A stretch of DNA of 44,704 bases. Origin: Tepidiformaceae bacterium (GTDB taxonomy: Bacteria > Chloroflexota > Dehalococcoidia > Tepidiformales > Tepidiformaceae). The first letter of the stretch is position 1. Each line of letters starts with the position of its first letter. A model generated the notes under the pieces. The model was not told the DNA's origin and did no database searches. It was given only the letters and a program-made list of their open reading frames with translations. Below are positions 1 to 43,035 of this stretch, piece after piece. The stretch spans positions 1 through 44,704 of the forward strand of contig DATBWD010000247.1 in the NCBI GenBank assembly GCA_036515015.1, given 5' to 3'. The position numbers and the translations under genes were made by a program.

Positions 1-85
1 CGACCCCCGGCGGGCCGCGCCGCGGGCGGGACTGTAGGCTAGTACCTTAGGGGCCGCCCCCCGCCCGCGCGGGCCGGGGCCGCCG

Positions 86-113
86 CCCCCCCTACCGCCC
101 TACCCTACCCCCC
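86..113 (-). other. G-quadruplex / i-motif-prone tract
   Basis: The + strand reads CCCCCCC-TA-CC-G-CCC-TA-CCC-TA-CCCCCC. This gives four G-runs of 3 or more on the - strand, separated by short loops. Confidence 0.4.
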
Positions 114-146
114 GCCGGGGCCGCCCCGCCGCCCCGGCGGCCCGGC

Positions 147-165
147 GCGCCCCCCGCGGGGGCGC
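147..165. other. all-G:C hairpin
   Basis: GCGCCCCC (147-154) and GGGGGCGC (158-165) are perfect reverse complements around a 3-nt loop. Confidence 0.5.
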
Positions 166-176
166 CTACCCGGCCT

Positions 177-210
177 ATGGTTACGATAACTGATACTTAT
201 CGTAAGCCAT
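177..210. repeat. A/T-rich inverted repeat in an otherwise extremely GC-rich region
   Basis: ATGG-TTACGATAA-ctgatac-TTATCGTAA-gCCAT. The 9-bp arms are perfect (181-189 / 197-205), and the flanking ATGG/CCAT pair extends each arm to 13 bp apart from one extra unpaired G (206). Confidence 0.7.
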
Positions 211-211
211 A

Positions 212-249
212 CCCCTACCCCTACCCCCTCCCTACTACCCCGACCCCCC
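212..249 (-). other. G-quadruplex / i-motif-prone tract
   Basis: The + strand reads CCCC-TA-CCCC-TA-CCCCC-T-CCC-TACTA-CCCC-GA-CCCCCC: six C-runs with 1-5 nt loops. Confidence 0.45.
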
Positions 250-256
250 ACCACTA

Positions 257-290
257 GGGGGTACGCTAGTACCCCCCACGCGTGGGGTAC
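257..290. repeat. three-arm GTAC palindrome (alternative hairpins)
   Basis: GGGGGTAC-gcta-GTACCCCCC-acgcgt-GGGGTAC. The middle arm is complementary to both flanking arms. Confidence 0.6.
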
Positions 291-406
291 GCCCCCCGCC
301 CGCCCGCCCGGCCGCCCGGCGCCCCGCGGGCGCGGGGACCCCCCGCCCCGGCCGGGCGCCCGGACCACACGGGCCACCAGACGCAGGGAGATTTGGAACT
401 TGGGAC

Positions 407-435
407 TTGCAATAGGGGGGTAACCCTAGTATTGT
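407..435 (+). promoter_or_regulatory. sigma70/sigmaA-like promoter candidate for the early gene block
   Basis: TTGCAA (407-412), an exactly 17-nt spacer, then TATTGT (430-435). It sits in a local A/T-rich patch about 170 nt upstream of the first convincing gene (608). Confidence 0.45.
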
Positions 436-607
436 TGTTTACGCCTAGACCAGACCGCGACAGGCTGAGAGCCCAGCGCTCACCCGGAACGGGAAACCGT
501 GCTGCGATGCCAGCGGGCGGGCCAAACGGGGCGATAGACGACTGGTCGGGGCAACCCCTCCCTCCTGCCCGTCCGGCTGCCGGCCCGCAGGGGGCGCCGG
601 AGGCGAG

Positions 608-853
608 ATGAGCACCGTATCGAGCAGGAGAACCGAGATTGTCGTAGATGCGAACGACGGCACGTTCCAGGTGCATGTCGTCGGCCAAAATGTGGGGGCA
701 GGCCAGTCATTCGTGTCGGATGTCAGGGTCAGGATGGCTGACCCGAACGGGGGCGGCATGACCCTACCCCACGCGAACACTCTTGGCACGCTCGAGCAGT
801 TGCGAGACCTGATCGGCGAGGTGCTGGCGCTGGCGAAGCAGGAGGGTCTCTGA
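608..853 (+). CDS. hypothetical protein
   Basis: ORF-track ORF. The ATG is preceded by GGAGG (599-603). The stop overlaps the next start (TGATG, 851-855). Confidence 0.6.
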   Translation: MSTVSSRRTEIVVDANDGTFQVHVVGQNVGAGQSFVSDVRVRMADPNGGGMTLPHANTLGTLEQLRDLIGEVLALAKQEGL

Positions 854-1257
854 TGCAGTTCCGACCCGCGCTAGCGAGGGCGATCATAGAGGGACGCAAG
901 AGCGTGACGCGGCGGCCGGCCGATGTTTACGATCGCAGGCTCGGCCCAGCCGGCGACTATGAGCGCGTGTACCGGGCGGCGACGGACCGGCTGATCTACC
1001 AGAAGCACGGGTCATACGCCGTGCAGCCAGGCCGGGGGGCGAAGAGCGTGGCCCGCATCCAGATTGATCGGATCGACTTGGGCTACCTGCACGAGATGAA
1101 TCTGAGCGACGCCCGGCTCGAGGGGTTTGCGGATCTAGACGGGTTCCGCCGGGTGTGGCGGGAGATGTACAGCCAGTGGGACCCCGACACGCTGGTGTAT
1201 GTGCTGACCTTCCGGCTCCTGGCCCCCCCGCCCAGTGGCCCGCAGGGGGCGTCGTGA
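853..1257 (+). CDS. hypothetical protein (possible ASCH/PUA-like fold)
   Basis: ORF-track ORF. The N-terminus MQFRPALARAIIEGRKSVTRRP resembles the opening strand motif of ASCH-type domains. This is a weak, memory-based call. Confidence 0.6.
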   Translation: MQFRPALARAIIEGRKSVTRRPADVYDRRLGPAGDYERVYRAATDRLIYQKHGSYAVQPGRGAKSVARIQIDRIDLGYLHEMNLSDARLEGFADLDGFRRVWREMYSQWDPDTLVYVLTFRLLAPPPSGPQGAS

Positions 1258-1484
1258 AGCGGCCAGACGTCCTGAGAGCCAGCAAGGAGCAGTGGTTGGG
1301 CAAGGCGATCCGTTGGTGGGAGTTCATCTGCGCCGGCTGCGGCGAGAGCGGCCTGTGGCCCGGAACGCTCGCCCAGGCCACGCGGCAGGCCAGGGAGCAG
1401 GGCTGGCGGCGGCAGACCTCGCCAGCCGGTCGATTGTGGTCGTGCGGTGGCTGCATGGCCGAGCAGAACCGGAGGCAGGCCTGA
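1254..1484 (+). CDS. small CxxC...CxxC zinc-ribbon-like protein
   Basis: The GTG start sits in a GTGA overlap with the upstream stop and is in frame with track ORF 1155..1484. Cys pairs are CAGC and CGGC. Confidence 0.55.
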   Translation: MKRPDVLRASKEQWLGKAIRWWEFICAGCGESGLWPGTLAQATRQAREQGWRRQTSPAGRLWSCGGCMAEQNRRQA

Positions 1485-1507
1485 GCATCAGACAGGATCT
1501 CAGATAC

Positions 1508-1858
1508 GTGGTACGTCGCTGGACCCGACCGGAGTACCGCCCCTACCTGCTACGGGGCATCGTGACGTGGTGGGGCTTCGTGATCATCTGTTACGGTGTC
1601 TGGCTAGTAGCGACGCGTGCTCTCTTCCAGAGCAATCTATCGCCTGCGTGGCTACTGATCTTCTCCGCGCTCGCCTTCCTCTTCGGTCTCGTAGCAGCCG
1701 TCGTCTGGGGCATATTCTGGACGTGGGACACGATGCAGGATGGATGGGTGGACCCACTGACCCTCCTGGCCGACCGCCCGACCGAGCCGTTGCCCGAGCA
1801 TCTGAAGCCGTACTTTTATACGCCTGGGGGCACGCGCTCCGAGCCGCCTTATGACTGA
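1508..1858 (+). CDS. small membrane protein, start uncertain
   Basis: This is the C-terminal part of track ORF 1235..1858. It has two hydrophobic helices (WWGFVIICYGVWLVA; WLLIFSALAFLFGLVAAVVWGIFW). GTG 1508 is the first start after the upstream stop at 1484. Confidence 0.55.
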   Translation: MVRRWTRPEYRPYLLRGIVTWWGFVIICYGVWLVATRALFQSNLSPAWLLIFSALAFLFGLVAAVVWGIFWTWDTMQDGWVDPLTLLADRPTEPLPEHLKPYFYTPGGTRSEPPYD

Positions 1859-2075
1859 CCCTCCCGCTGGGCAGGCATCCGGCCCGTCCGTCCCACCCCC
1901 CGCTGGCCCGAAGGGCGGCGCCGGGTTGGTGATCCGGCCGAACGGCGCTAGACGCCTATGCGAATTCGAGGGCTGCACGAAGCCGAGGACGTGCTTGTGG
2001 TACTGCCTCGAGCACCACGAGATTGTGTGCATGCGCACACGCCGCGGGGTCTGGATTGGAGATGGGAATGGATGA
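1851..2075 (+). CDS. small Cys/His-rich protein
   Basis: The ATG overlaps the upstream gene by 8 nt. CEFEGCTKPRTCLWYCLEHH suggests metal binding. Confidence 0.55.
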   Translation: MTDPPAGQASGPSVPPPAGPKGGAGLVIRPNGARRLCEFEGCTKPRTCLWYCLEHHEIVCMRTRRGVWIGDGNG

Positions 2076-2670
2076 GAGCAGGATTCAGCGGATAGCAGCC
2101 GAGATCCACCACCGGCTTGAGCGGGCCATCTGGAACCCGGCGCGCGTGAGCCTGGACGACATCGCCGCCACCAGCGCCGATTCGCCGCGGTCGGAGGAGG
2201 TAATCACTCCGGCCGAGGCCGTCAGGGCCATGCAGGCCGTGCTCGAGGCCATCGACGCCATGAAGTATGCGTTGCTTGGGATGGTCGGTGCCGCTACAGC
2301 GCTCGAGTGCGACATGGACCTGCTGGCTAAGGAATTGCGCGAGACCCAGCGGAAAGCGGACGACGACATGCGGAGCACGGCCGGCCAATGGCTGGCCCGC
2401 CGCCTTGGCCCGTGGGCCGTACCCGCCCGCCGCTGGCTCCCCATGTGGGCTGCCCGCCGCATGGCACTGAGCGAGTGGCAGCGCATCCAGCCACCGACCC
2501 TAGGCCAGTGTCGGCACTGCGGTGCCTTCCAGCCGCTGGTGGGGATGGGCCACATGCAGATCCTGCAATCGCACCGCGACAGACGCTATCCCATTCTCAG
2601 CGGCATTGTATGCCCCAACGTCTACGAGTGGGACACCGTCGAGGGAGAGTTCAAAGATGCCGCCGACTGA
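2062..2670 (+). CDS. hypothetical protein
   Basis: In frame with track ORF 2023..2670. ATG 2062 or 2068 follows GGAG. The sequence has non-low-complexity, helical-looking composition. Confidence 0.6.
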   Translation: MGMDESRIQRIAAEIHHRLERAIWNPARVSLDDIAATSADSPRSEEVITPAEAVRAMQAVLEAIDAMKYALLGMVGAATALECDMDLLAKELRETQRKADDDMRSTAGQWLARRLGPWAVPARRWLPMWAARRMALSEWQRIQPPTLGQCRHCGAFQPLVGMGHMQILQSHRDRRYPILSGIVCPNVYEWDTVEGEFKDAAD

Positions 2671-3217
2671 GACACCGAAGACCCCCGAGATGCTGCGGGC
2701 GCTGGCGAATGAGGTAGAACGCAAGCATTCGCCTATCGCCAGTGACCAGTATCCGTGCATTGAGCCAGAAGATGTGCGTGCCCACGCCGACGCCTGGCAG
2801 GCCATCGAAGGCGCTCTGCTCGCGTTGACGCCGGGAGGCTCCGAGTTCGTGGGCAGCCCCCATCGATGCCTGGAGTTCATCAAGGACCGCATGGCTACGG
2901 TGATGAAGGTCGCCGTGGCCAATAAGACCCTCGGGGTCGAGTTGGAAGCGGTGAAGGCGCGGGAGGAGGCGGCACGGCCAACACCGTGTATCTGGCGACC
3001 GCAGCCGCACGGGGATGAGACGGAGTATTGGGAGACGACCTGCGACAACGCTTACTGCTTCGAGATCGATGGTCCAACCGAAAACGACTACTCCTTCTGC
3101 CCCGGATGCGGCCATCCGATCCTTGTCGCCCCGCTTGTCATGACCGGAATGGAAGAGGGCGATGTCCTATTCGACTTGGTGGCCGCCTCGGAGCCGCCGG
3201 GGGAGGAGGGGACGTGA
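2657..3217 (+). CDS. hypothetical protein with FCPGCGHP zinc-ribbon motif
   Basis: ATG 2657 follows GAGGGAGAG and is in frame with track ORF 2522..3217. The protein ends ...ASEPPGEEGT inside junction cassette copy 1. Confidence 0.65.
   Translation: MPPTETPKTPEMLRALANEVERKHSPIASDQYPCIEPEDVRAHADAWQAIEGALLALTPGGSEFVGSPHRCLEFIKDRMATVMKVAVANKTLGVELEAVKAREEAARPTPCIWRPQPHGDETEYWETTCDNAYCFEIDGPTENDYSFCPGCGHPILVAPLVMTGMEEGDVLFDLVAASEPPGEEGT
3182..3217 (+). repeat. junction cassette copy 1 (full, 36 nt)
   Basis: GCCGCCTCGGAGCCGCCGGGGGAGGAGGGGACGTGA, identical to copy 5. It contains the GGAGGAGG SD, then a GTG start overlapping a TGA stop. Confidence 0.9.
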
Positions 3218-3387
3218 GAGGCCAGTGCTATCTTCGGGGATGGAGCCTCCTTGGTCTACTCAACACACTGCTCGGATGTGTATTCGCCGTCGTGCTAATA
3301 CGCCACAGAGACTCGACGTCGCACAGGACCGTTCGGTGGTCGTGGGGAAAAGCCTCCGACTGGCCGCCGGGGGAGGAGGGGACGTGA
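3214..3387 (+). CDS. 57-aa membrane peptide
   Basis: The GTG start lies in cassette copy 1. The hydrophobic core is WSLLGLLNTLLGCVFAVVLI. The protein ends ...PPGEEGT in cassette copy 2. It is below the 60-aa track threshold when counted from this start. Confidence 0.5.
   Translation: MRGQCYLRGWSLLGLLNTLLGCVFAVVLIRHRDSTSHRTVRWSWGKASDWPPGEEGT
3363..3387 (+). repeat. junction cassette copy 2 (25 nt)
   Basis: GCCGCCGGGGGAGGAGGGGACGTGA. Confidence 0.85.
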
Positions 3388-3485
3388 AACACACTGACCT
3401 CTGGTGGGAGATTGCCCAAGCCGTAGTAGTTCTACTGGCCATGATTGCGCTTGCTGTCGCCGTGCCAATCTGGTTCCCGTCATGA
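3384..3485 (+). CDS. 33-aa membrane peptide
   Basis: The GTG start lies in cassette copy 2. The TM-like segment is IAQAVVVLLAMIALAVAVPIWF. Confidence 0.45.
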   Translation: MKHTDLWWEIAQAVVVLLAMIALAVAVPIWFPS

Positions 3486-3490
3486 TGGGC

Positions 3491-3508
3491 GGGGGAGGAG
3501 GGGACGTG
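3491..3508 (+). repeat. junction cassette copy 3 (core, 18 nt)
   Basis: GGGGGAGGAGGGGACGTG, with no overlapping stop in this copy. Confidence 0.8.
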
Positions 3509-3853
3509 CGCGAGCATCGTCACAAATGGCACTTCAACCCGAACATGGACAACGAGAGAAGCGGGCCAACCCGCGTCGGCTTCATCTGCGACGACTGCCA
3601 AGAGCAGATGACGCTCACGAAGGCCGAGGCCATTCTTGACGGACGGGAAGCGGCGAAGGCGCGGGAGGAGGCGGGCAATCTGATGGCCGAGTGCCTTCGG
3701 AGCATGGACGGGGTAGACACGCAAGGACCTATCTTGGCGGCCACTATTCACTTCCTCCTCCGCGACGACGTGCGTGCCGCGGTTGACAAATGGCAGGCCG
3801 CCTCGGAGCCGCCTGGCACAGCCCGACAAAGCCTGGGGGAGGAGGGGACGTGA
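3506..3853 (+). CDS. hypothetical protein (CDDC motif)
   Basis: The GTG start lies in cassette copy 3; the alternative starts ATG 3482/3485 lie upstream of the SD. In frame with track ORF 3404..3853. The protein ends ...ASEPPGTARQSLGEEGT. Confidence 0.6.
   Translation: MREHRHKWHFNPNMDNERSGPTRVGFICDDCQEQMTLTKAEAILDGREAAKAREEAGNLMAECLRSMDGVDTQGPILAATIHFLLRDDVRAAVDKWQAASEPPGTARQSLGEEGT
3797..3853 (+). repeat. junction cassette copy 4 (split by an 18-nt insertion)
   Basis: GCCGCCTCGGAGCCGCCTGG, then cacagcccgacaaagcct, then GGGGGAGGAGGGGACGTGA. Confidence 0.8.
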
Positions 3854-4083
3854 GCGAAAGCAGAGGGCAAATGCTCGCCGAGGCCAACGCCGAACTCCAT
3901 GTCGCGAAGGAAGGACTGGAACAATCGCGGACATGGAAGCGCGAGGCTGAAAGAGCCTACGATGATGCGATGGGAAGGTGGGTCAAGGCTCGCCTAAGAA
4001 GGGATGCCATCTTGACGGGGCTCCACCGTGCCCCATCGACACATCGTGCCGCCTCGGAGCCGCCGGGGGAGGAGGGGACGTGA
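3850..4083 (+). CDS. hypothetical coiled-coil-like protein
   Basis: The GTG start lies in cassette copy 4, in frame with track ORF 3790..4083. The protein ends ...AASEPPGEEGT. Confidence 0.6.
   Translation: MSESRGQMLAEANAELHVAKEGLEQSRTWKREAERAYDDAMGRWVKARLRRDAILTGLHRAPSTHRAASEPPGEEGT
4048..4083 (+). repeat. junction cassette copy 5 (full, 36 nt)
   Basis: Identical to copy 1. Confidence 0.9.
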
Positions 4084-4322
4084 GCGACTGGACCCCGTTC
4101 CTCTCTGCGCTGTATCGGGGAGAGCCGCTGGCTTGCACCGCAGAACAATGGCATGGCGGGTTGCGGACGGCCGTCCAGAAGCACGCCGCCAAGATGGTCG
4201 ATGGCGGTCAGGACATCTACGCGGTGATTGCTCTAGAGGAGGTACGACGAAACGACGCCGCGCATGGGAGCGGGATGTCTGGATTCTCGGAGCCGCCGGG
4301 GGAGGAGGCAGCCCATAACTGA
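4080..4322 (+). CDS. hypothetical protein
   Basis: The GTG start lies in cassette copy 5, in frame with track ORF 3978..4322. The protein ends ...FSEPPGEEAAHN. Confidence 0.6.
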   Translation: MSDWTPFLSALYRGEPLACTAEQWHGGLRTAVQKHAAKMVDGGQDIYAVIALEEVRRNDAAHGSGMSGFSEPPGEEAAHN

Positions 4323-4563
4323 TCCCGTCCCGCCTATTGGCCTTTGCTCCTCCTGCCAAGCCGAGATCCGCTGGATCAAGACGCCGCTGGGGAAGTCCAT
4401 GCCTCTCAACGCCAAGCCCGTGAAGCGTTGGATCGTCAGAGAGACGCCGGATGGTGCGGGCGACTATGAGTGGAGTGGCCAGATGGCCGACACCTACGAG
4501 AGCCACTATGGCACATGCCCCCAGGCGGCGCAGTGGCGGGGCAGAACGAGATCCGGCGGATGA
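4264..4563 (+). CDS. small Cys-containing protein, start uncertain
   Basis: Track ORF. The convincing part is CSSCQAEIRWIKTPLGKSMPLNAKPV...YESHYGTCPQAAQW. ATG 4264 has no SD and overlaps the upstream gene by 59 nt. There is no canonical start between cassette copy 6 and this domain. Confidence 0.5.
   Translation: MGAGCLDSRSRRGRRQPITDPVPPIGLCSSCQAEIRWIKTPLGKSMPLNAKPVKRWIVRETPDGAGDYEWSGQMADTYESHYGTCPQAAQWRGRTRSGG
4286..4308 (+). repeat. junction cassette copy 6 (degenerate 3' end)
   Basis: CTCGGAGCCGCCGGGGGAGGAGG is followed by cagcccataactga instead of GGACGTGA. Confidence 0.75.
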
Positions 4564-5348
4564 TTCCCCCGACCCCCGCCCAGGCCCGCCTGCTCCGGGC
4601 TGTTTCCCAGCACCCCGACCACTACCTGCGGGTGTGGTTTGGGAGCGTGGACTTCGTAGAAAGGGCGAAGATCGACGTCCCAGAAGGGCGCTGGTGGCCT
4701 GGTGGCGACAAGAGTGGAGCGAGCAAAGAGACGGCCATGGTCTGTGTCCGGCTCGGGTGGCTTCAGAGGACTCCGAGCGTTCTCGGCTCGTGGCGGATGG
4801 GCGGCGAGGCGTCGTTGTACCTGATCACGGATCTCGGCCAACAGGCCATCGACGGCCTTCCCGATGATGCCTACCGGAGCATCCCCCGCATTGTGCCGTC
4901 CGTCGACGGCCATGCCGCCGAAGTGCTACGGGCGCTGTTGGCTCGCCACGACCCAGCCAAGGGCTGGGTATTCCTGATCGAGGCCCCGATGGATATCGGC
5001 GGCGGCCACCACGCCGTCGACGCGTGGGCCATCAACTGCTTCGCCTCCCAGAACCACCGGAGGGTCGGCTATGAGGTCAAGGTGAGCCGATCGGACTTCG
5101 TCGGCGAGTTGAAGAAGCCCGACAAGACCGCCCGCAGCGCCCGATTCTGCACGTCGTTCTACTTCGCCTGCCCCGTTGGGGTACTGAAGCCGGCCGACGT
5201 CCCAGATCCCTATGGCCTCGTCCATGTGTTCGAGAAGGGCACCACTCGCGTCGTCAAGAAGTCGACCCTGCCGCCCTCTGATCCGACCTGGGGGCTGGTT
5301 GGCCGCCTGCTCCGGCGCCTAGCCCAGATGGAGGAAGAGAGTGCCTAA
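4560..5348 (+). CDS. PD-(D/E)XK-type nuclease family protein (MmcB-like)
   Basis: ATG sits in an ATGA overlap, in frame with track ORF 4470..5348. The C-terminal half DAWAI...GYEVKVSRSDFVGELKKPDK...FYFACP fits a D...E-x-K nuclease core as seen in MmcB-like proteins (memory-based). Confidence 0.6.
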   Translation: MIPPTPAQARLLRAVSQHPDHYLRVWFGSVDFVERAKIDVPEGRWWPGGDKSGASKETAMVCVRLGWLQRTPSVLGSWRMGGEASLYLITDLGQQAIDGLPDDAYRSIPRIVPSVDGHAAEVLRALLARHDPAKGWVFLIEAPMDIGGGHHAVDAWAINCFASQNHRRVGYEVKVSRSDFVGELKKPDKTARSARFCTSFYFACPVGVLKPADVPDPYGLVHVFEKGTTRVVKKSTLPPSDPTWGLVGRLLRRLAQMEEESA

Positions 5349-5562
5349 CACGCTTCGATTCATGGCGAACGGCACGACCATGGCCTTCGACGAGATGGGC
5401 CAGCAGATCGCCGAGATCCAGAAGTTCCCTTGGCTGGCTATCGCCCTGGCTAGGCTCGAGAGCCTAGGCTATGACCCCAAAGCCTTCGAGATCCTGATGC
5501 CGAGCCGCCTGAAGGTGCGTCCCGAGAAGGTAGACGGCCGCTGGACGTGGTCATTCGAGTGA
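5341..5562 (+). CDS. hypothetical protein
   Basis: The GTG start follows GGAGGAAGAGA and overlaps the upstream gene by 8 nt. Confidence 0.55.
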   Translation: MPNTLRFMANGTTMAFDEMGQQIAEIQKFPWLAIALARLESLGYDPKAFEILMPSRLKVRPEKVDGRWTWSFE

Positions 5563-5801
5563 AGCCATCCACCGAACTGCTGCGCCTGCTGGCTGGCGGC
5601 ATGAATATGACCGATGGGCCATGGGCCTTGAAGTGCGCCAGGGAGTGGGACTCGCTCATCCGGGCGGCCTCGCGGTATCTCCGCTACGTCGATCGCTACC
5701 GCCAGGTGGCGGCCTGGGGCGGGGAGATGCAGCGCGTAACCTTCCGCCGCATGATCAAGGCCGAAAGCATGTTACGATGCCGCCTGGAACGGTTGCGCTA
5801 G
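5559..5801 (+). CDS. hypothetical protein
   Basis: GTG sits in a GTGA overlap (alternative GTG 5547), same frame as track ORF 5547..5801. Confidence 0.5.
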   Translation: MKPSTELLRLLAGGMNMTDGPWALKCAREWDSLIRAASRYLRYVDRYRQVAAWGGEMQRVTFRRMIKAESMLRCRLERLR

Positions 5802-5803
5802 TA

Positions 5804-6157
5804 ATGGGCCGCACGATCTACACCGGCATCACCACCCGCTACCGGGGAACCCGCTTCCTCGGATTCAACGTGTACGTCTCGTGGCGGGGCAAGAGCCGGG
5901 CTACCAGCATCGGCTGCCTAGATGAGGACTGCGTCGACCGGGCGCTGGTGATCCGCGAGCGCTTCTGGCGAGAACTCGGCAAGCCGGCCACGGAGCGGAA
6001 TATCCGGGCCGGCTACGGCCGACCCTACGTGCGCGACGGCATCGTGGTGGTCTCGATCGGCGACCACTACCGGAAGTTCAGCATCCGCAAGCACGGCCGG
6101 CGCGAGGCTATGCGTCTGGCCAAGGAGGCGAAGGCAAGATGGCTCAGCGGGGAATGA
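5804..6157 (+). CDS. hypothetical protein (possible AP2-like DNA-binding repeats)
   Basis: ATG 5804 lies 3 nt after the upstream TAG, in frame with track ORF 5621..6157. YRGTRFLGFNVYVSWRGKSRATSIG and VSIGDHYRKFSIRKHGRREA resemble AP2-type strands. Weak call. Confidence 0.55.
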   Translation: MGRTIYTGITTRYRGTRFLGFNVYVSWRGKSRATSIGCLDEDCVDRALVIRERFWRELGKPATERNIRAGYGRPYVRDGIVVVSIGDHYRKFSIRKHGRREAMRLAKEAKARWLSGE

Positions 6158-6360
6158 GGCGTTTCGTGGTCCTACGGAACGAAGATCCCGGCGGCGTCTC
6201 AGGCACGGGGCAAGTAGCCGAGGGCGTCGAATTCAGCGATGGCACCTGCGTGCTGCGGTGGACCACCGTTCAGAAGTCGACCGCCTTCTACGACAGCGCC
6301 GAGGCCTGCGAGGCCATCCACGGCCACAGCGGAATGACGAGGTTCGAATGGATCGACTAG
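6139..6360 (+). CDS. conserved small phage protein of unknown function
   Basis: Track ORF, with AGGAGG about 10 nt upstream; an alternative start is ATG 6154 in an ATGA overlap. The motif GVSGTGxVAEGVxFSDGTCVLRW...AIHGH resembles small proteins I recall from actinobacteriophages (memory-based). Confidence 0.6.
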   Translation: MAQRGMRRFVVLRNEDPGGVSGTGQVAEGVEFSDGTCVLRWTTVQKSTAFYDSAEACEAIHGHSGMTRFEWID

Positions 6361-6920
6361 ACGCCCCCGAAGGGCATCCTGACCGGAACGTCCGGCTTCC
6401 CGTCGGCGGCGTCTTGCCGGCCGCGGGGGCTGGGGGAATGCCGGGAGCACCCCCAGCCCCCATCACGCTCGAGGAACTCGAGCAACTGCACCGGGCCGCC
6501 TCCCCGGCCCCCTGGCACGCCTGCCGGGACGGCGAGTGCAAGTGCAAGCAATTGTGGACGGCCGACCATCCCGTCGCCGTCATCGAGGCTGGCGAGTGGG
6601 GCGACGAGTACCCGGCTCTGCGGATGTTGGACGTCGAGGGCACCCTGCATGGCACACAGACGGTCGTGGAGGCCTACACCGAGCGTATCCCCTATGGCGA
6701 GATCAGCGAGGATCTGGCCAAGGCGAATATCCTGCTGATGGAGCGGCTCCGCAACGCGACCGAGGCGCTTCTGACGCTGGCCCGGACCGCCCAGAAGGTC
6801 GCCTACATCATCCGGCCGGGCCGGCATAGCCTATCGATGAGGATCGACGAGAACACCACCGACGAGGAGAAGGACCAGATCCTGCAGTTCCTCGCCGCAG
6901 CGGAGGCGGCCCCGAAATGA
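6348..6920 (+). CDS. hypothetical protein
   Basis: In frame with track ORF 6258..6920. The start is ATG 6348 or ATG 6438. Contains PWHACRDGECKCKQLW. Confidence 0.55.
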   Translation: MDRLDAPEGHPDRNVRLPVGGVLPAAGAGGMPGAPPAPITLEELEQLHRAASPAPWHACRDGECKCKQLWTADHPVAVIEAGEWGDEYPALRMLDVEGTLHGTQTVVEAYTERIPYGEISEDLAKANILLMERLRNATEALLTLARTAQKVAYIIRPGRHSLSMRIDENTTDEEKDQILQFLAAAEAAPK

Positions 6921-7309
6921 AGCCAATTACTATCGCACTTCTCGTAACGGTAGAGATAGTCCTCGTCGCCGTCGCTGGATACCTAGTCGGCGTCGAGAAT
7001 GGCATAAACGTCACGATCGCCGCCTACAATGACCAGTGCGATGCCCGCGTGCAGACGGCCATCGACGAGACGGCCCGTCAGGGAGTGGAAGTCGGCGCAC
7101 AGATGGGGATGGAGGAGGCCGGGAAGTACTGGTTGCCTCAACTGCAGGCTTGCCTTCTCGAGACGAATAGTGTCCACGCGGCCATTGCGCGGTTAATCTA
7201 CGAGGAGGAGTGGGACGACGCGGTTGCCTATGATCTCCTGTGGTGCATCATGGGTGACGCCCATCCACTGGAGGACTGTCGGGCGATGCTCGCCGAGGCC
7301 CGCCAGTGA
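6917..7309 (+). CDS. N-terminally membrane-anchored hypothetical protein
   Basis: ATGA overlap. The N-terminal TM is ITIALLVTVEIVLVAVAGYLVGV. Confidence 0.6.
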   Translation: MKPITIALLVTVEIVLVAVAGYLVGVENGINVTIAAYNDQCDARVQTAIDETARQGVEVGAQMGMEEAGKYWLPQLQACLLETNSVHAAIARLIYEEEWDDAVAYDLLWCIMGDAHPLEDCRAMLAEARQ

Positions 7310-8625
7310 CCGACCAGCAGGGGATCTGGATCGAGTACATGGACATCCGGGCACTCGTGCCCGATCCCGACAACCCGAAGGACCATGACGTCGGCGCCAT
7401 CGACGAGTCCGTCAACGTGTTCGGCTTCGTCAACCCCATGGGGATCAACGAGGAGTCGGGCCTGGTCATCTTCGGGCATGGCCGGCTGAAGGACTTGCTG
7501 GGCAAGCAGGACCGAGGCGAACGCCCACCCGGCAATGTGCGGCTGGAGGATGGCCGATGGCTGGCGCCGGTGGTGCGCGGCGTCCACCTCGACGCCGAGA
7601 AGGCGAAAGCCTACGTCATCGCCGACAACCAACTGACATTCCTCGGCGGCTGGAATGAGCCGAAACTGCTGGCGAACCTGATCGAGTTGGCTGGGCCGGC
7701 CAAGATCGGCATCGGCCTGCGGGGCACGGGCTTCGCCCCAGACGACATCGACCGGCTTGAGCGCCTGCTCAACCCAAGCGATCACGACGACCCGATCCCC
7801 CACGTGGACCTAGCGGCCAAGTTGCAGAGCAAGTGGGGTACGGTGGTCGGGCAACTCTGGCGGGTTCCCTCCAAGGCCGTGGCCGGCGTCGAGCACCGCA
7901 TCTTCTGCGGCGACTGCACCGTGCCCGAGCACATCGACGCTCTGATGGGCGACCGGACCGCCGCGCTGGTCGTCACCGACCCGCCCTATGGGATCGACCA
8001 CATTAGGCACCGCAGCGGCAAGCGGACCCGGCCGCAGGAAGGCGATGAGGACTCGGAGCGGGAGCATTACCCGGCGATCGGTGGCGACGCCCTGACCGGG
8101 AAGGAGTTCGAAGAATTCATGACCGGCGCCTTCCGCAACGTGGTGCGGCATGTGGCCGACGATGCGGCCTGGTACGTCTGGCACGCCGCCGACAACCGCG
8201 AAGCCGTCGCCCGGGCGATGGCTACCGTCGGCGTCCAGGTCCATCAGGAGATCGTGTGGAAGAAGGACAACTTCTACATGGGCCGCCAGGATTACCACTG
8301 GCAGCACGAGACCGCCCTGTACGGCTGGCGGGGCAAGCACAACTTCTACGGCGCCCGCAATCAGTCGACCGTCTGGGAGATCCGCCGGGATAAGAAGATG
8401 ATGCACCCCACCATCAAGCCGGTGGCTCTCTATATGATCCCGATGCGGAACAACACCCACCACGGCGAGATCGTGCTCGACCCCTTCGGCGGCTCGGGGC
8501 CGGTGGTGCTGGGCGCTGAGCGGACTGGCCGGCTCGGCTACGCGCTCGAACTCTCGCCGGGCTACGTGGCGGTGATCCTCCAGCGGTGCCGGGACATGGG
8601 GCTGGAGCCTCTGCTAGATGGCTGA
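7306..8625 (+). CDS. ParB-like N-terminal domain fused to a beta-class N6-A/N4-C DNA methyltransferase
   Basis: GTGA overlap. The N-terminus is ParB/Srx-like (IRALVPDPDNPKDH...GHGR). Catalytic motif IV is VVTDPPYGI. The SAM motif I LDPFGGSGP lies near the C-terminus, so the order IV then I indicates the beta class. Confidence 0.85.
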   Translation: MTDQQGIWIEYMDIRALVPDPDNPKDHDVGAIDESVNVFGFVNPMGINEESGLVIFGHGRLKDLLGKQDRGERPPGNVRLEDGRWLAPVVRGVHLDAEKAKAYVIADNQLTFLGGWNEPKLLANLIELAGPAKIGIGLRGTGFAPDDIDRLERLLNPSDHDDPIPHVDLAAKLQSKWGTVVGQLWRVPSKAVAGVEHRIFCGDCTVPEHIDALMGDRTAALVVTDPPYGIDHIRHRSGKRTRPQEGDEDSEREHYPAIGGDALTGKEFEEFMTGAFRNVVRHVADDAAWYVWHAADNREAVARAMATVGVQVHQEIVWKKDNFYMGRQDYHWQHETALYGWRGKHNFYGARNQSTVWEIRRDKKMMHPTIKPVALYMIPMRNNTHHGEIVLDPFGGSGPVVLGAERTGRLGYALELSPGYVAVILQRCRDMGLEPLLDG

Positions 8626-8785
8626 CGCTCGGATCGATATCGACATGAGCAAGCCCTGCCCCCGGTGTGGCAAGATGGGGGCGGCCAACGGCGGTCCGTG
8701 CCTGAAGTGCATCCTGAAGGCACTCGACTCTGGCGAGATCCGTCCCGGCGGCCGCCGCCGCAAGAGATCCCGTAATGCCCAATGA
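8618..8785 (+). CDS. 55-aa zinc-ribbon-like basic protein
   Basis: Below the track threshold. The ATG overlaps the methyltransferase end by 8 nt. The protein reads MADARIDIDMSKPCPRCGKMGAANGGPCLKCILK...RRRKRSRNAQ. Confidence 0.45.
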   Translation: MADARIDIDMSKPCPRCGKMGAANGGPCLKCILKALDSGEIRPGGRRRKRSRNAQ

Positions 8786-8873
8786 CATCGAGAGTCAGGG
8801 GTGCAACTGCTGTGGCTGCCTGACTGTGCTGGCGGTCATCGCAGTCTGTGTCCTTATGCTCGTGATAATCTAG
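8775..8873 (+). CDS. 32-aa Cys-rich hydrophobic peptide
   Basis: MPNDIESQGCNCCGCLTVLAVIAVCVLMLVII. It overlaps the previous small ORF by 11 nt and ends 8 nt before the SIS gene start. I see no clear SD. Confidence 0.3.
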   Translation: MPNDIESQGCNCCGCLTVLAVIAVCVLMLVII

Positions 8874-8881
8874 GAGGCCCA

Positions 8882-9436
8882 ATGGAGAATTGGACCCACG
8901 CCCGGGCTGTTGCTTTTCAATCCTACGCCCAGCGGACCATCACCGCACTCGGGACCGTCGATGCCGGAGCGGTGGCCGAGGCCGCATGGCACATGCACCG
9001 GGAGCAGCGCATGGGCGCGCACGTGTTCGTCATCGGCAATGGCGGCTCCTTCTCGACGGCCGAGCACATCGCCGCGGATCTCTCGAGATCGGGCGGGGTG
9101 AAGGGCGTCCGGGGGCCGGGCTACCTCGACTGGATCACCGGCCAGGCCAACGACTTCGGCTACGAGAGCATCTTCCAGGCGTACCTCATGATGTGCGCCA
9201 CGCCAGGCGACGTGTTGATCGCATTGTCCGTCAGCAAGCAGAGTCCCAACATCATCTTGGCCTGCCAGTATTGGCAGGAGCGCGGCGACGTCATCGGGTT
9301 GTGGGGGAGGCGATGGCCACAGGGGGCCGACAAGTTTGCCGACGTCAGTATATTTGTCGACGACGACGACCCCAAGGTGGTAGAGACATGCCATCTGGCC
9401 ATCGGCCAGGCTTGGGCCGACATGGTGAGCGCGTGA
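8882..9436 (+). CDS. SIS-domain sugar-phosphate isomerase (phosphoheptose isomerase GmhA-like)
   Basis: The ATG follows TAGGAGG, in frame with track ORF 8801..9436. Motifs VFVIGNGGSFSTAEHIAADL and GDVLIALSVSKQSPNIILA match the SIS fold of GmhA-type isomerases. Confidence 0.75.
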   Translation: MENWTHARAVAFQSYAQRTITALGTVDAGAVAEAAWHMHREQRMGAHVFVIGNGGSFSTAEHIAADLSRSGGVKGVRGPGYLDWITGQANDFGYESIFQAYLMMCATPGDVLIALSVSKQSPNIILACQYWQERGDVIGLWGRRWPQGADKFADVSIFVDDDDPKVVETCHLAIGQAWADMVSA

Positions 9437-40414: not shown

Positions 40415-41140
40415 ATGCGAGCATTCGTCGTGGGTGGAGGCCCGAGCCTGAAGCACACCAACCTCGACCGCTTGGTGGGTGAGGTGTCGTTCGCCATGAA
40501 CCGCATCGACCTGGCGTACCAGCCCGACCCGGCCAACGGCATCCGAGGGACCATCTGGCGGCCAACCTACTACCTGTTCGCCGAGCACGTTGGCATTGGC
40601 GTGAAGGCGAGCGCGGATTGGAAGGACTACTCGCAATATGTGCTGCCCTATCACGTGGACGCCGGAGAGACATGCATCATCCGGTCGGTGTTCAAGCCAT
40701 CGCTGGCCCGTGCTGCTGGCGGACGGCTGGATTGGCCGAACGTCACGTGGTTCGATAACGAGGACTGCGAGCACCACAATTGCAACATCCGTAGCGATAA
40801 CCGGCCCTCCCGATGGCACCTGCCGACGCTGTGCGCCTTCGGGGGCACGGTCGGAATCGCCATTCAGATGGCACTGATGTTCGGCTATGACCCCATCTAC
40901 CTCGTCGGCTGCGACCTGGGCTACAAGCCGGTGCGCGGCGGGCCAGACCCCAACCACTTCCACCCGGATTACCACACCTGGGACACGCACCCGCTGCTCG
41001 AGCGGGACGATACGCTGATCTTGATGCACCAGATCGCCGAACAGGAAGTGATCGCACACGGCCGGAGCATCTACAACGCCACGGTCGGCGGCCTGCTCAA
41101 GGTCTATGACCGCGTCGACTACGAGAGCCTGTTCGAATGA
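40415..41140 (+). CDS. MptE/Maf-like (DUF115) protein, putative glycosyltransferase
   Basis: The N-terminal AFVVGGGPSL and the central FGGTVGIAIQMALMFGYDPIYLVGCDLGY...HFHPDY match my memory of the DUF115 Rossmann-like signature. Confidence 0.55.
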   Translation: MRAFVVGGGPSLKHTNLDRLVGEVSFAMNRIDLAYQPDPANGIRGTIWRPTYYLFAEHVGIGVKASADWKDYSQYVLPYHVDAGETCIIRSVFKPSLARAAGGRLDWPNVTWFDNEDCEHHNCNIRSDNRPSRWHLPTLCAFGGTVGIAIQMALMFGYDPIYLVGCDLGYKPVRGGPDPNHFHPDYHTWDTHPLLERDDTLILMHQIAEQEVIAHGRSIYNATVGGLLKVYDRVDYESLFE

Positions 41141-42516: not shown

Positions 42517-42824
42517 TGGAACTCCCGCCTCAGTTGCAGTGGGCGCTCGGACCATTCGGCGCGCTGATGATCCTAGGCGTCGTCGCATGGCTTGGATTTA
42601 GGGGACACATCTGGAGCAAGCGCCAGGTGGATCAGGCGACCAATGCCCAGCGCGAAGCCTTCAAGATCGCCGCTAGGGAGATCGGCGAGGCGATGGCGAA
42701 GGGCTTGGAGGACGCTATGACGAGTGCCATCGCAAACGGCGTCCCAGCCATGTACAAGAAGATCCGCAAGTTCGAGAATGGCAAGATCAACGCGGCAGCG
42801 GCCAAGCCAAGGCGCAGGGCGTAG
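42516..42824 (+). CDS. holin-like membrane protein
   Basis: TGATG overlap with the endolysin, in frame with track ORF 42474..42824. It has one TM (WALGPFGALMILGVVAWLGF) and a charged C-terminal tail. Confidence 0.5.
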   Translation: MELPPQLQWALGPFGALMILGVVAWLGFRGHIWSKRQVDQATNAQREAFKIAAREIGEAMAKGLEDAMTSAIANGVPAMYKKIRKFENGKINAAAAKPRRRA

Positions 42825-42840
42825 TTGCCGACGTCGGCAA
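42825..42840. repeat. perfect 16-bp palindrome
   Basis: TTGCCGACGTCGGCAA lies directly after the stop at 42824. Confidence 0.7.
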
Positions 42841-42842
42841 AC

Positions 42843-42956
42843 ATGGGACAGCCCACCGACCCACCCCTGATCTGGGCGCTACTGGCAGGCATCCTCTCCT
42901 ATCTCGTCCTAGCCATGCTGGTGTGGGCGGTGCGGAAGGTGCCACCGACCAAGTAG
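42843..42956 (+). CDS. 37-aa membrane peptide (second lysis-cassette component?)
   Basis: MGQPTDPPLIWALLAGILSYLVLAMLVWAVRKVPPTK. Below the track threshold and with no clear SD. Confidence 0.35.
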   Translation: MGQPTDPPLIWALLAGILSYLVLAMLVWAVRKVPPTK

Positions 42957-42961
42957 GCGGC

Positions 42962-42990
42962 TTGCCCGGCCGGCTGGCCTGTGGTAGCCT
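42962..42990 (+). promoter_or_regulatory. weak promoter candidate
   Basis: TTGCCC, a 17-nt spacer, then TAGCCT (TAnnnT), in the 79-nt gap upstream of the LCP gene. Confidence 0.25.
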
Positions 42991-43035
42991 GACAGCCGTG
43001 CCGGACCGGGCCTTCCCCCCACGATAGGAGAGCCG

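What the first reader, a model, noticed from the sequence alone, without database searches (positions are those of the whole stretch)
3182..4308. Six copies of a gene-junction cassette (stop + GGAGGAGG + GTG start) linking a run of small genes
The sequence GCCGCCTCGGAGCCGCCGGGGGAGGAGGGGACGTGA recurs six times within 1.1 kb. Two copies are identical 36-mers, one is a 25-mer, one an 18-mer core, one is split by an 18-nt insertion, and one is degenerate. In five copies the GTG lies 4 nt after GGAGGAGG. In four of those it overlaps the upstream TGA (GTGA). As a result, most of the unrelated upstream proteins end in the same peptide, (A)SEPPGEEGT or a close variant. This looks like a modular translational-coupling element and a ready-made homology patch for shuffling, duplicating or deleting small genes. 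It is conceptually similar to the start-associated sequences described in Cluster K mycobacteriophages and to lambdoid boundary sequences. The shared C-terminal tail could alternatively be a functional tag.
Basis: partly seen in the sequence, partly recalled or inferred. Interest (0 to 1): 0.7.

Follow-up and report, generated by a model that had tools for sequence, protein, structure and literature searches.

The report
Portable gene-junction cassette in phages
A 36-base module (end of one gene, strong ribosome-binding site, GTG start overlapping the stop) sits between small early genes of an uncultivated phage, recurs base-for-base between unrelated genes in about 30 other viral contigs, and marks exactly where single genes have been swapped, inserted or deleted.

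Summary
The 18-mer GGGGGAGGAGGGGACGTG occurs five times exactly, the 36-mer twice, and a degenerate sixth copy follows, all within 3182-4322. None is expected by chance. Each copy joins two small + strand ORFs: the upstream gene ends ...(A)SEPPGEEGT-TGA and the next gene starts at the GTG of GTGA.

The cassette is not private to this genome. I found 54 distinct contexts on 29 viral or metagenome contigs, flanked by at least 31 unrelated downstream gene families. Conservation begins about 17 nt before the core and ends at the A of TGA.

Homology between contigs breaks at the cassette. One contig equals another minus exactly one core-to-core unit. Thirty of 84 homology-block end-points lie within 12 nt of a cassette, against 3.5 expected.

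Conservation is at nucleotide level, not peptide level: third codon positions are as conserved as the others, variants are mostly non-synonymous, and copy 3 lies outside the upstream ORF. Variant cassettes change the spacer and use ATG but keep the SD and the stop/start overlap.

Best reading: a standardised translational-coupling junction that also serves as a frame-preserving homologous-recombination patch for single-gene modules. It is a new variant of a known kind (PeSLs, start-associated sequences, boundary sequences). Coupling itself remains inferred.

The parts
3182..3217 (+). Cassette copy 1 (full 36-mer): gene A tail AASEPPGEEGT, SD GGAGGAGG at 3202-3209, GTG start of gene B at 3214-3216 overlapping TGA at 3215-3217
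3352..3387 (+). Cassette copy 2 (exact 25-mer at 3363-3387, upstream half diverged): gene B tail ...DWPPGEEGT, GTG start of gene C at 3384 overlapping TGA
3491..3508 (+). Cassette copy 3 (core only, GTGC). Gene C already stops at 3483-3485, so the core is not translated as GEEGT here. GTG 3506 is the start of gene D; an alternative ATG at 3482 forms an ATGA overlap with the gene C stop
   Evidence: gene calls of 115 vs 123 aa
3797..3853 (+). Cassette copy 4, long form: upstream half 3797-3813, 21-nt in-frame insert 3814-3834 (GTARQSL), core 3835-3852, GTGA. Gene D tail, start of gene E at 3850
   Evidence: the same long form in L050, L053, L056, L070
4048..4083 (+). Cassette copy 5 (full 36-mer): gene E tail AASEPPGEEGT, GTG start of gene F at 4080 overlapping TGA
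   Evidence: E and F called independently as 77 and 80 aa
4287..4322 (+). Cassette copy 6 (degenerate): TCGGAGCCGCCGGGGGAGGAGG kept at 4287-4308, 3' part replaced (CAGCCCATAACTGA). Gene F ends ...SEPPGEEAAHN at TGA 4320-4322, and no canonical start codon follows the SD
   Evidence: resembles variant cassettes GGAGGAGGCACAATGA in L005/L067
2657..3217 (+). Gene A (186 aa, Cys-rich C-terminal half; weak phrog_10312 match)
3214..3387 (+). Gene B (57 aa, one hydrophobic helix), runs from cassette GTG to the next cassette TGA
3384..3485 (+). Gene C (33 aa, one hydrophobic helix)
3506..3853 (+). Gene D (115 aa; 123 aa if started at ATG 3482)
3850..4083 (+). Gene E (77 aa)
4080..4322 (+). Gene F (80 aa)
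4264..4563 (+). Gene G (phrog_5984; family alignment starts at residue 25 of the ATG-4264 ORF, which puts the N-terminus near 4315, just after the copy-6 SD; start codon uncertain)
2944..2972 (+). Internal patch (EAVKAREEA) shared at 97% with 3646-3674 in gene D. It also occurs upstream of the cassette in L001 and in L049
3646..3674 (+). Second copy of the KAREEA patch (gene D)

Best explanation
The repeat is a standardised, portable gene junction used by a group of uncultivated high-GC phages in a rightward operon of small early genes. It works at two levels.

(1) On the mRNA (inferred). The last 5-11 codons of the upstream gene contain a double Shine-Dalgarno sequence (GGAGGAGG), and the upstream stop overlaps the downstream start as GTGA. 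A ribosome finishing gene n is therefore held by SD/anti-SD pairing and re-initiates one base back on gene n+1. It also keeps the site unfolded for new 30S subunits. Any ORF placed after the cassette gets the same context-independent initiation signal.

(2) On the DNA (shown comparatively). The 18-36 (to 57) nt of identical sequence is a patch for homologous recombination within a genome and between co-infecting relatives. Because the patch contains both the stop of one gene and the start of the next, in a fixed phase, every crossover yields intact, correctly phased and translatable genes. Single genes can therefore be deleted, inserted or replaced cleanly.

The shared ...SEPPGEEGT tail is a passenger 'scar' of the module, not a selected tag. 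Whether the near-perfect identity is kept by purifying selection or by continual recombinational homogenisation is unresolved.
For: Shown:
- Six copies in the window, far above chance.
- 54 distinct contexts on 29 contigs from many metagenomes. The 39 hits in cellular genomes are chance hits that lack the upstream half.
- Conservation has sharp edges at about -17 and at the A of TGA, with background-level flanks.
- Flanking genes are diverse: 31 downstream and 22 upstream clusters. Window genes B, C, E, F and G have no homolog in any other carrier.
- Exact breakpoints: L056 1-511 = L057 529-1039 and L056 759-1063 = L057 1021-1325, both at 100%, so the difference is one 266-nt core-to-core unit. 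L070 271-1219 = L053 3651-4599 at 100% but is unrelated upstream. L056 and L070 diverge 6 nt after the core.
- 30 of 84 homology end-points lie within 12 nt of a cassette, against 3.5 +/- 1.8 expected.
- L001 carries the full 36-mer joined to a homolog of window gene 8618-8785, which has no cassette in the window.
- One gene per unit: spacing is 2 mod 3 in 18 of 27 cases (P = 4e-4), and 17 of 27 units are single ORFs running from a GTG to the next TGA.

Support for the translation role:
- GTG frame open for >=30 codons in 51 of 54 contexts, against 2 and 18 for the other frames; GTGA overlap in 52 of 54.
- N-termini of window MADARIDIDMSKPC and L001 (V)TGARIEIDMSKPC align from residue 1.
- Variant cassettes change the spacer and use ATG but keep the SD and the ATGA overlap.
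- The cassette RNA is less structured than its shuffles.
- No + strand promoter or terminator inside the array.
- NTGA (-4) spacing with an SD is the best-documented coupling architecture (PMC12548453).

Nucleotide-level rather than peptide-level conservation.
Against: - No expression data exist, so neither coupling nor use of the GTG starts is shown experimentally.
- An SD plus start codon needs only about 9 of the 18 invariant core bases. The remaining invariance needs another cause: homogenisation, a bound factor, or a G-rich structure.
- No phage recombinase was recognised in the window or in carrier contigs. The enzyme that uses such short homology is therefore unknown.
- 54 of 84 homology end-points are not at cassettes.
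- Near-identical copies of the window phage from many samples show no array variation, so turnover is not rapid on that scale.
- The test comparing substitution rates in cassette and flanks was underpowered.
- All comparative data come from metagenome assemblies. Mis-joins at a 36-nt repeat are unlikely with k = 127-141, and several arrays are reproduced across samples, but they cannot be formally excluded for single short contigs.
Confidence: 0.72

Rival explanations
1. Translational operator. The invariant 18-mer spanning SD and start codon is the binding site of a phage- or host-encoded RNA-binding protein or small RNA that switches the whole set of early genes on or off together, as T4 RegA does or as was proposed for start-associated sequences. 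The recombination breakpoints are then a by-product of repeated sequence.
For: Core bases that are not needed for SD or start codon are invariant: 0-2 changes per position in 56 contexts. GTG is never replaced by ATG within the canonical form, although ACG to ACA would be synonymous upstream. The authors of the SAS paper reached the same suspicion for similar reasons (PMC3203893).
Against: Variant cassettes with different spacers and ATG starts coexist in the same arrays, so the 3' half is dispensable. The core invariance is partly imposed by how copies were found (<=2 mismatches). There is no antisense copy or complementary sequence in the window (searched both strands), no dyad symmetry, and no candidate regulator.
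Confidence: 0.12
2. Structure-enforced coupling. The (GGN)4 tract GGGGGAGGAGGGG folds into a two-layer RNA G-quadruplex that hides the SD, so that only a ribosome arriving from the upstream gene can open it. That would explain why the G's flanking the SD are invariant. This refines the main explanation rather than excluding it.
For: G-quadruplex-aware folding places a GG.GG.GG.GG quadruplex on the SD in all five copies and lowers the predicted energy by 10-17 kcal/mol. Ordinary hairpin folding gives nothing. Most variant cassettes still have four GG tracts (by inspection).
Against: The ViennaRNA energy for two-layer quadruplexes is generous. Any doubled SD is G-rich by construction. Five of 56 copies carry GAGGGAGG..., and L074:1245 carries AGCGGAGGAGGGAAC; both lose a four-tract arrangement with loops of at least 1 nt. 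There is no experimental support.
Confidence: 0.12
3. Functional C-terminal peptide. ...SEPPGEEGT is a selected tag, such as a degron, a localisation signal, or a PPG ribosome-pause motif, and the DNA repeat merely encodes it.
For: Most upstream proteins end in the peptide. PPG/PPE is retained in the long form and in copy 6. PP-G is a known EF-P-dependent pause motif (my own knowledge, not tested here).
Against: Third codon positions are as conserved as first and second (0.70 vs 0.60 and 0.69). Variation in the tail is mostly non-synonymous: SE, PE, SS, SG, PL, G to E or R. The fully conserved core of copy 3 is outside the upstream ORF. L002 has PEPG without PP. Conservation extends through the stop codon into the next gene's start.
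Confidence: 0.04
4. Relic of tandem duplication. The small genes are diverged paralogs of one ancestral gene, and only the ends stayed similar.
For: Genes A and D share two further short patches. In other contigs many cassette-linked genes share an ALAASQERVRELE patch, and some upstream genes form a family with a similar C-terminus.
Against: With tails trimmed, the window genes show no significant similarity to each other; the best E is 0.026, and that is the A/D patch. The A/D patches are in permuted order. Flanks are at background similarity with sharp edges. The same cassette joins unrelated genes in other phages.
Confidence: 0.03
5. Site-specific recombination site (integron attC-like), cut and rejoined by a dedicated recombinase.
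For: The array consists of promoterless single-gene units, each bounded by the same sequence. Indels are precise single units.
Against: There is no inverted-repeat or hairpin architecture. No integrase or recombinase was recognised near the arrays. Breakpoints fall at different places in or next to the cassette (core start, or 6 nt after the core), as expected for homologous rather than site-specific exchange.
Confidence: 0.04

Closest known systems
PeSL cassettes (promoter-early stem-loops) of T4-type phages (Arbiol et al. 2010, PMC2839356; Comeau et al. 2014, PMC4122927)
   Same: Short conserved regulatory cassettes lie between small, mostly ORFan genes in plastic regions. Insertions, deletions and replacements between related phages are bounded by the cassettes. 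Recombination between cassettes shuffles single-gene modules.
   Different: PeSLs are intergenic transcription signals: a sigma-70 promoter plus a terminator stem-loop. This cassette has no promoter, terminator or stem-loop. It is a translation signal that overlaps both coding sequences, and it fixes the reading phase and the C-terminal peptide of the upstream gene. The phage lineage is different. Mini-circles have not been shown here. The second repeat family in the leftward array of the same phage looks more like a PeSL.
Start-associated sequences (SAS/ESAS) of Cluster K mycobacteriophages (Pope et al. 2011, PMC3203893)
   Same: An asymmetric repeat that contains the SD, lies a few bases upstream of start codons of non-structural genes in one orientation, is conserved across related phages in front of unrelated gene families, is absent from host genomes, and is conserved beyond what rRNA pairing needs.
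   Different: The sequence is different (GGGATAGGAGCCC, 13 bp). SAS sites are mostly followed by ATG, are scattered over the right arm, and are defined relative to the start only. Here the element is 18-57 nt, includes the start codon and the upstream stop, imposes a shared C-terminal peptide, forms a contiguous array, and is demonstrably a recombination breakpoint, which was not reported for SAS. There is no ESAS-type inverted repeat.
Conserved boundary (linker) sequences proposed for lambdoid phage mosaicism (as summarised in PMC3029335; modular-evolution idea, my own knowledge)
   Same: Short conserved sequences at gene boundaries serve as sites of homologous recombination between otherwise unrelated modules.
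   Different: In lambdoid phages and mycobacteriophages such sequences cannot be found at most mosaic joints (PMC3029335). Here one explicit, near-invariant sequence is present at dozens of joints and has a plausible function of its own.
Natural -4 NTGA translational coupling, and the engineered bicistronic design (review PMC12548453; BCD from my own knowledge)
   Same: The SD is embedded in the 3' end of an upstream ORF whose stop overlaps the downstream start. This is expected to give initiation that depends little on the downstream sequence.
   Different: Ordinary coupled junctions are idiosyncratic. The window's other junctions use varied SDs and mostly ATG. Here a single junction sequence is reused verbatim across genes and genomes.

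Membership tests
PeSL (T4-type promoter-early stem-loop cassette) | Strong sigma-70-like early promoter inside the repeat | tested here: not met
   No + strand promoter-like site in 1-9000; the cassette has no -10/-35-like hexamers.
PeSL (T4-type promoter-early stem-loop cassette) | Stem-loop that acts as a terminator | tested here: not met
   The cassette folds less well than its shuffles, z +1.4 to +1.7; no + strand terminator-like site in the array.
PeSL (T4-type promoter-early stem-loop cassette) | Indels and replacements between related phages bounded by the repeats | tested here: met
PeSL (T4-type promoter-early stem-loop cassette) | Excised mini-circles carrying one gene plus one cassette | not testable with these tools
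   Needs reads or PCR from viromes.
Start-associated sequence (Cluster K mycobacteriophages) | 13-bp consensus GGGATAGGAGCCC | tested here: not met
   The cassette sequence is unrelated apart from GGAG.
Start-associated sequence (Cluster K mycobacteriophages) | Located 3-7 bp upstream of start codons of non-structural genes, in one orientation | tested here: met
   GGAGGAGG lies 4 nt before the GTG; all copies are on the gene strand.
Start-associated sequence (Cluster K mycobacteriophages) | Conserved across related phages in front of different gene families; absent from cellular genomes | tested here: met
   31 downstream clusters; genome hits are chance only.
Start-associated sequence (Cluster K mycobacteriophages) | Subset with extended 17-bp inverted repeats (ESAS) | tested here: not met
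   No local inverted repeats at the cassettes.
Translationally coupled -4 (NTGA) junction | Start codon overlaps the upstream stop as NTGA | tested here: met
   4 of 5 in the window; 52 of 54 overall; ATGA in variant cassettes.
Translationally coupled -4 (NTGA) junction | SD inside the upstream ORF at working distance from the start | tested here: met
   Two overlapping GGAGG, 4 and 7 nt before the GTG.
Translationally coupled -4 (NTGA) junction | Downstream translation depends on upstream translation | not testable with these tools
   Needs reporter or ribosome-profiling experiments.
Integron gene cassette / attC | Imperfect inverted repeats that fold into the attC hairpin | tested here: not met
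Integron gene cassette / attC | Adjacent IntI tyrosine recombinase | tested here: not met
   None recognised in the window or in carrier contigs, although many ORFs there have no annotation at all.
Stoperator (Cluster A mycobacteriophages) | Asymmetric repressor-binding sites near stop codons, spread over the whole genome | tested here: not met
   Copies are confined to 3182-4322 of 44.7 kb. Repressor binding is not testable.
CRISPR array | Uniform repeats with uniform 25-50 nt non-coding spacers | tested here: not met
   Inter-repeat segments are 104-326 nt, are ORFs in fixed phase, and the repeats themselves are partly coding.

The most novel reading that the evidence does not exclude
The cassette is not just a by-product repeat. 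It is a selected, integrase-free 'gene-cassette platform': a plug-and-play junction that lets a community of co-infecting phages trade single early genes (host-takeover or anti-defence genes), perhaps through excised one-gene circles as with PeSL mini-circles. Every exchange is automatically in frame and translationally coupled. The same phage runs a second, different cassette system in its divergent leftward operon. This would be the clearest natural instance of the 'linker sequence' mechanism long proposed for modular phage evolution.
Probability: 0.3. Interest if true: 0.8.

Novelty: new variant of a known kind. Interest (0 to 1): 0.66.

Why it matters
It has been debated for decades whether phage mosaicism arises by homologous exchange at short conserved boundary sequences or by illegitimate recombination followed by selection. 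The main obstacle is that such boundary sequences are rarely visible (PMC3029335). Here one explicit sequence sits at dozens of joints. Exact single-gene indels and swaps are bounded by it, and the element has a plausible function of its own that explains why it persists. That makes the question testable in this system through read-level population analysis, co-infection crosses and reporter assays. The cassette is also a natural counterpart of engineered standard junctions (bicistronic designs). It could serve as a compact, context-independent coupling part for high-GC hosts, and as a search handle for finding fast-evolving accessory genes in viromes.

Tried and rejected
- Structured RNA or riboswitch: cassette contexts fold no better than shuffles, and there are no Rfam hits at E <= 1 in 2000-6000.
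- tRNA-linked or integration site: no tRNAs in the window.
- Promoter or terminator cassette: none on the + strand in the array.
- Prophage or host origin of the motif: all 39 hits in 185,579 species genomes lack the upstream half and are single copies, so they are chance. L048 and L068 are a bacterial DUF481 outer-membrane gene and were removed.
- Isolated-phage relatives: none found for the region, the cassette, or a tail protein.
- Relatives found through neighbouring gene H (L045, L046; 57-59% aa identity) lack the cassette, so it is not universal in the wider clade.
- Dedicated recombinase: a 485-aa protein shared by five carrier contigs looked RecT-like by eye but matched nothing in Pfam or PHROGs. 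Nothing was recognisable in the window.
- Tandem-duplication origin: rejected.
- Frameshift site of the prfB type: rejected by inspection. ACG-UGA and AAC-UGA are not slippery, and the SD spacing is wrong.
- Substitution rate in cassette versus flanks: only four usable pairs, so inconclusive.
- Array variation among near-identical copies of the window phage: none.
- 'Acb5' label on window 6139-6360, taken from a precomputed table: not reproduced by my own Pfam scan.
- Two coordinate slips of mine were corrected: the gene X start is 8618, not 8619, and a faulty fuzzy-regex scan was replaced by a Hamming scan.
Full report

Yes. The 36-mer GCCGCCTCGGAGCCGCCGGGGGAGGAGGGGACGTGA occurs exactly at 3182-3217 and 4048-4083, with 0 expected in shuffles. 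The 18-mer core GGGGGAGGAGGGGACGTG occurs exactly five times, at 3199, 3369, 3491, 3835 and 4065. All are on the + strand, against 0.2 expected, and no shuffle reached 5. A repeat finder returns the same six-member family, including the degenerate copy at 4281-4317.

The junction anatomy is as described:
- GTG lies 4 nt after GGAGGAGG in five copies.
- GTG overlaps the upstream TGA (GTGA) in four copies.
- The upstream ORFs end in ...SEPPGEEGT or close variants.

Two corrections are needed. The insert that splits copy 4 is 21 nt, or seven codons (3814-3834), not 18. It is also a recurrent long form of the element, not a private insertion.

**2. Gene model**

All genes are on the + strand:

| Gene | Coordinates | Size / note |
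|---|---|---|
| A | 2657-3217 | 186 aa |
| B | 3214-3387 | 57 aa |
| C | 3384-3485 | 33 aa |
| D | 3506-3853 | 115 aa; 123 aa from ATG 3482 |
| E | 3850-4083 | 77 aa |
| F | 4080-4322 | 80 aa |
| G | ends 4563 | start uncertain |
| H | 4560-5348 | 262 aa |

- GC3 exceeds GC2 in every gene, although less strongly than in the large structural genes.
- Independent gene calls on near-identical public contigs give the same A, D, E and F.
- All five inter-core distances are 2 mod 3, as required if each gene runs from one cassette's GTG to the next cassette's TGA.
- The window is a tailed-phage genome, with a ParB-methyltransferase, large terminase, tape measure and endolysin. It has no relative among isolated phages.
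- The array lies in the early small-gene region. No + strand promoter- or terminator-like site, tRNA or Rfam family falls inside it.

**3. The element is shared by a phage group**

- Scanning IMG/VR with the core gave five contigs. Four carry the upstream half as well, and L005 carries three or more copies.
- The same core in 185,579 species genomes gave 39 single hits. None has the upstream half, so these are chance hits.
- A metagenome scan with a 21-mer gave 27 contigs, many with 2-3 copies. Two of them (L048, L068) are a bacterial DUF481 gene and were discarded.
- In total there are 54 distinct contexts on 29 loci.
- Conservation rises at about -17, is near-total across the core, and falls to background immediately after the A of TGA.
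- Flanking genes are diverse, with 31 downstream and 22 upstream clusters. Window genes B, C, E, F and G have no homolog in any other carrier.
- The window phage itself is on record in 38-74 data blocks at 99.7-99.9% identity, including the JGI sample that also holds other carriers.
- Two more distant relatives, found through gene H, lack the cassette.

**4. Cassettes are recombination breakpoints**

Pairwise alignments show the following:
- L056 1-511 = L057 529-1039, and L056 759-1063 = L057 1021-1325, both at 100%. L057 therefore lacks exactly one 266-nt core-to-core unit.
- L070 271-1219 = L053 3651-4599 at 100%, starting at the first base of the core. Upstream of it the two are unrelated.
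- L056 and L070 are 99.7% identical through a gene and its long-form cassette, and diverge 6 nt after the core.
- L005 and L067 are mosaics whose block ends coincide with canonical or variant cassettes.

Across all carriers, 30 of 84 internal homology-block end-points lie within 12 nt of a cassette. Random placement gives 3.5 +/- 1.8, with a maximum of 13 in 2,000 simulations.

In L001 the full 36-mer, preceded by the same KAREEA patch as in window gene A, is joined to a homolog of window gene 8618-8785. In the window that gene follows the methyltransferase without any cassette.

**5. What is conserved, and why**

The selected unit is nucleotide sequence, not peptide:
- In the upstream half, mean conservation at codon positions 1, 2 and 3 is 0.60, 0.69 and 0.70.
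- Tail variants are mostly non-synonymous: SE, PE, SS, SG, and G to E or R.
- The fully conserved core of copy 3 lies downstream of the gene C stop.

A position-weight scan recovers variant cassettes that keep ...TCGGAGCCGCCGGGGGAGGAG but have other spacers and ATG starts that still overlap the stop. Examples are GGAGGAGGCACAATGA and GGAGGAGCAGGGATGA. What persists across variants is the SD, a short spacer, and a start overlapping the stop.

Further points bearing on the translation role:
- The GTG frame is open for >=30 codons in 51 of 54 contexts, against 2 and 18 for the other frames. GTGA occurs in 52 of 54.
- The N-terminus of the L001 protein that starts at the cassette GTG aligns from residue 1 with the ATG-started window homolog.
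- The cassette RNA is less structured than its shuffles.
- This is the -4 NTGA-plus-SD architecture, for which translational coupling is best documented (PMC12548453).
- The window's other junctions use heterogeneous SDs and mostly ATG, so the verbatim reuse is what is special.

**6. Mechanism**

Shown: the element is a conserved junction, and it is a preferred site of exchange that yields clean single-gene indels and swaps.

Inferred:
- Terminating ribosomes, tethered by the embedded double SD, re-initiate at the overlapping GTG, so any ORF placed after the cassette is expressed.
- Exchange is by homologous recombination on 18-57 nt of identity. The enzyme is unknown, because no recombinase was recognised.
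- The shared tail is a tolerated scar.

Unresolved: whether identity is maintained by selection or by homogenisation. The rate test was underpowered. The invariance of non-SD core bases leaves room for a bound regulator, or for a (GGN)4 quadruplex that G-quadruplex-aware folding predicts over the SD in all five copies (the energy model is generous).

**7. Comparison with known systems**

- **PeSL cassettes of T4-type phages** are the closest in behaviour: recombination between conserved regulatory cassettes shuffles small ORFan genes (PMC2839356, PMC4122927). PeSLs, however, are intergenic promoter-terminator units, and those defining features are absent here.
- **Start-associated sequences of Cluster K mycobacteriophages** are the closest in position and conservation pattern (PMC3203893). 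The sequence differs, and SAS do not include the stop and start codons, do not impose a peptide tail, and were not shown to be breakpoints.
- **Boundary sequences.** The element realises the boundary-sequence idea for phage mosaicism, which is usually not visible at mosaic joints (PMC3029335).
- It is not an attC site, a stoperator or a CRISPR repeat (see the membership table).

I therefore rate it a new variant of a known kind.

**8. Caveats**

- All comparative evidence comes from metagenome assemblies. A 36-nt repeat is well below the final k-mer sizes implied by contig names such as k141 and k127. Several arrays are reproduced in independent samples (L053/L073, L052/L058, L005/L055/L071, and the window phage in more than 24 contigs). 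Even so, individual short contigs could be chimeric.
- The copies were ascertained by similarity to the core, which inflates the apparent invariance of the core. The upstream half and the flanks are free of this bias.
- The host is unknown.

Noticed in passing
L081:1-7405 (minus strand), i.e. about 2-9 kb upstream of window position 1 on near-identical contigs; not in the window: A divergent leftward array of about 18 small genes is separated by regular 77-90 nt gaps. The gaps hold a second, different repeat family of about 60-98 nt. Read in gene sense it is: stop, GC-rich hairpin(s) GGCGCGGCTTAACCCCGCGACC, CCCTACCCCTAGGAGGTG, about 6 nt, then ATG. It looks like a PeSL-type composite cassette.
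   Followed up: partly
window 1-600 (especially 90-225) and L081:7400-9400: The divergent control region between the two operons is 69% GC and packed with CCCTAC(C)/GGGTAG repeats; 5 of the window's 11 CCCTACC sites lie in the first 225 nt. The same GGGTAGGG motif is part of the leftward intergenic cassette. It may be a promoter or operator element.
   Followed up: partly
window 2944-2972 and 3646-3674; 2768-2803 and 3764-3799: Genes A and D share two further short patches: EAxKAREEA at 97% nt identity, and DVRA..WQA at 72%. They lie in opposite order in the two genes. The KAREEA patch also precedes the cassette in L001 and occurs in L049 and L050 proteins. So short internal patches are shuffled as well as junctions.
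   Followed up: partly
window 4287-4340 (cassette copy 6, start of gene G): Gene G (phrog_5984) has no canonical start where the family alignment places its N-terminus, at about 4315. After the retained SD come CAGCCC and then ATA. The only in-frame ATG upstream (4264) would overlap gene F by 59 nt, and pipelines call a truncated 54-aa product from an internal ATG. This could be a non-canonical start, a decayed junction, or a long overlap.
   Followed up: partly
window 3482-3508 (cassette copy 3): Gene C stops 21 nt before the position of the usual cassette stop (which copy 3 lacks), at a TCATGA that creates an ATGA overlap with an alternative ATG start for gene D. From that ATG the core would be translated as MMGGGGGDV. 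Public gene calls disagree (115 vs 123 aa).
   Followed up: no
L003 (reverse-complement orientation: core 5036, PWM window 5019), L053:3992, L062:542, L070:612, L073:2159: A second junction type has a longer conserved tail ...ALRGPSTAGAE(G/R)E..EERT and a variant core GAGGGAGGAGCGGACGTGA or ACTGGAGGAGCGGACGTGA. A third conserved 3' module...ALRGPSTVGHPEAKPVGEGGVH.LGKGMGDDRDPSGLQRGA, occurs in L001, L069 and L074.
   Followed up: partly
many carrier contigs (L002, L003, L053, L054, L060, L062, L063, L064, L067, L070, L072, L074): An internal patch ALAASQERVRELE recurs in at least 12 otherwise different small proteins. Its DNA begins GGCCGCCTCG, like the cassette's upstream half.
   Followed up: no
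window 3199-3211 and the other four cores: The core is a (GGN)4 tract. G-quadruplex-aware folding predicts a two-layer quadruplex over the SD in all five copies. Separately, the tail encodes PPG five codons before the stop; PP-G is a known EF-P-dependent pause motif (my own knowledge), so a paused ribosome there would cover the SD and the start.
   Followed up: partly
window 8618-8785: A small Cys-rich (CPRC...CLKC) gene overlaps the methyltransferase stop by 8 nt (ATGGCTGA). Its L001 homolog (80% identity over 41 aa) is instead driven by the cassette.
   Followed up: yes
window 6139-6360: A precomputed table labels this 73-aa product Pfam PF26761 Acb5, an anti-CBASS family. My own Pfam scan found nothing, and PHROGs gives only phrog_7499 of unknown function. 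If real, it would support an anti-defence role for the neighbourhood.
   Followed up: partly
L052 (reverse-complement orientation, core at 2271) and L058:5065 (+ strand): The cassette-started 140-aa protein contains internal tandem peptide repeats (AEYEKAIGPAW / VEYERAIGPAW, about 6 copies).
   Followed up: no
window 41137-44145: The lysis region encodes a GH25 + M23 peptidase + SH3 endolysin and a LytR_cpsA_psr-domain protein. Together with 65% GC, this hints at a Gram-positive, high-GC host. The host is otherwise unknown.
   Followed up: no
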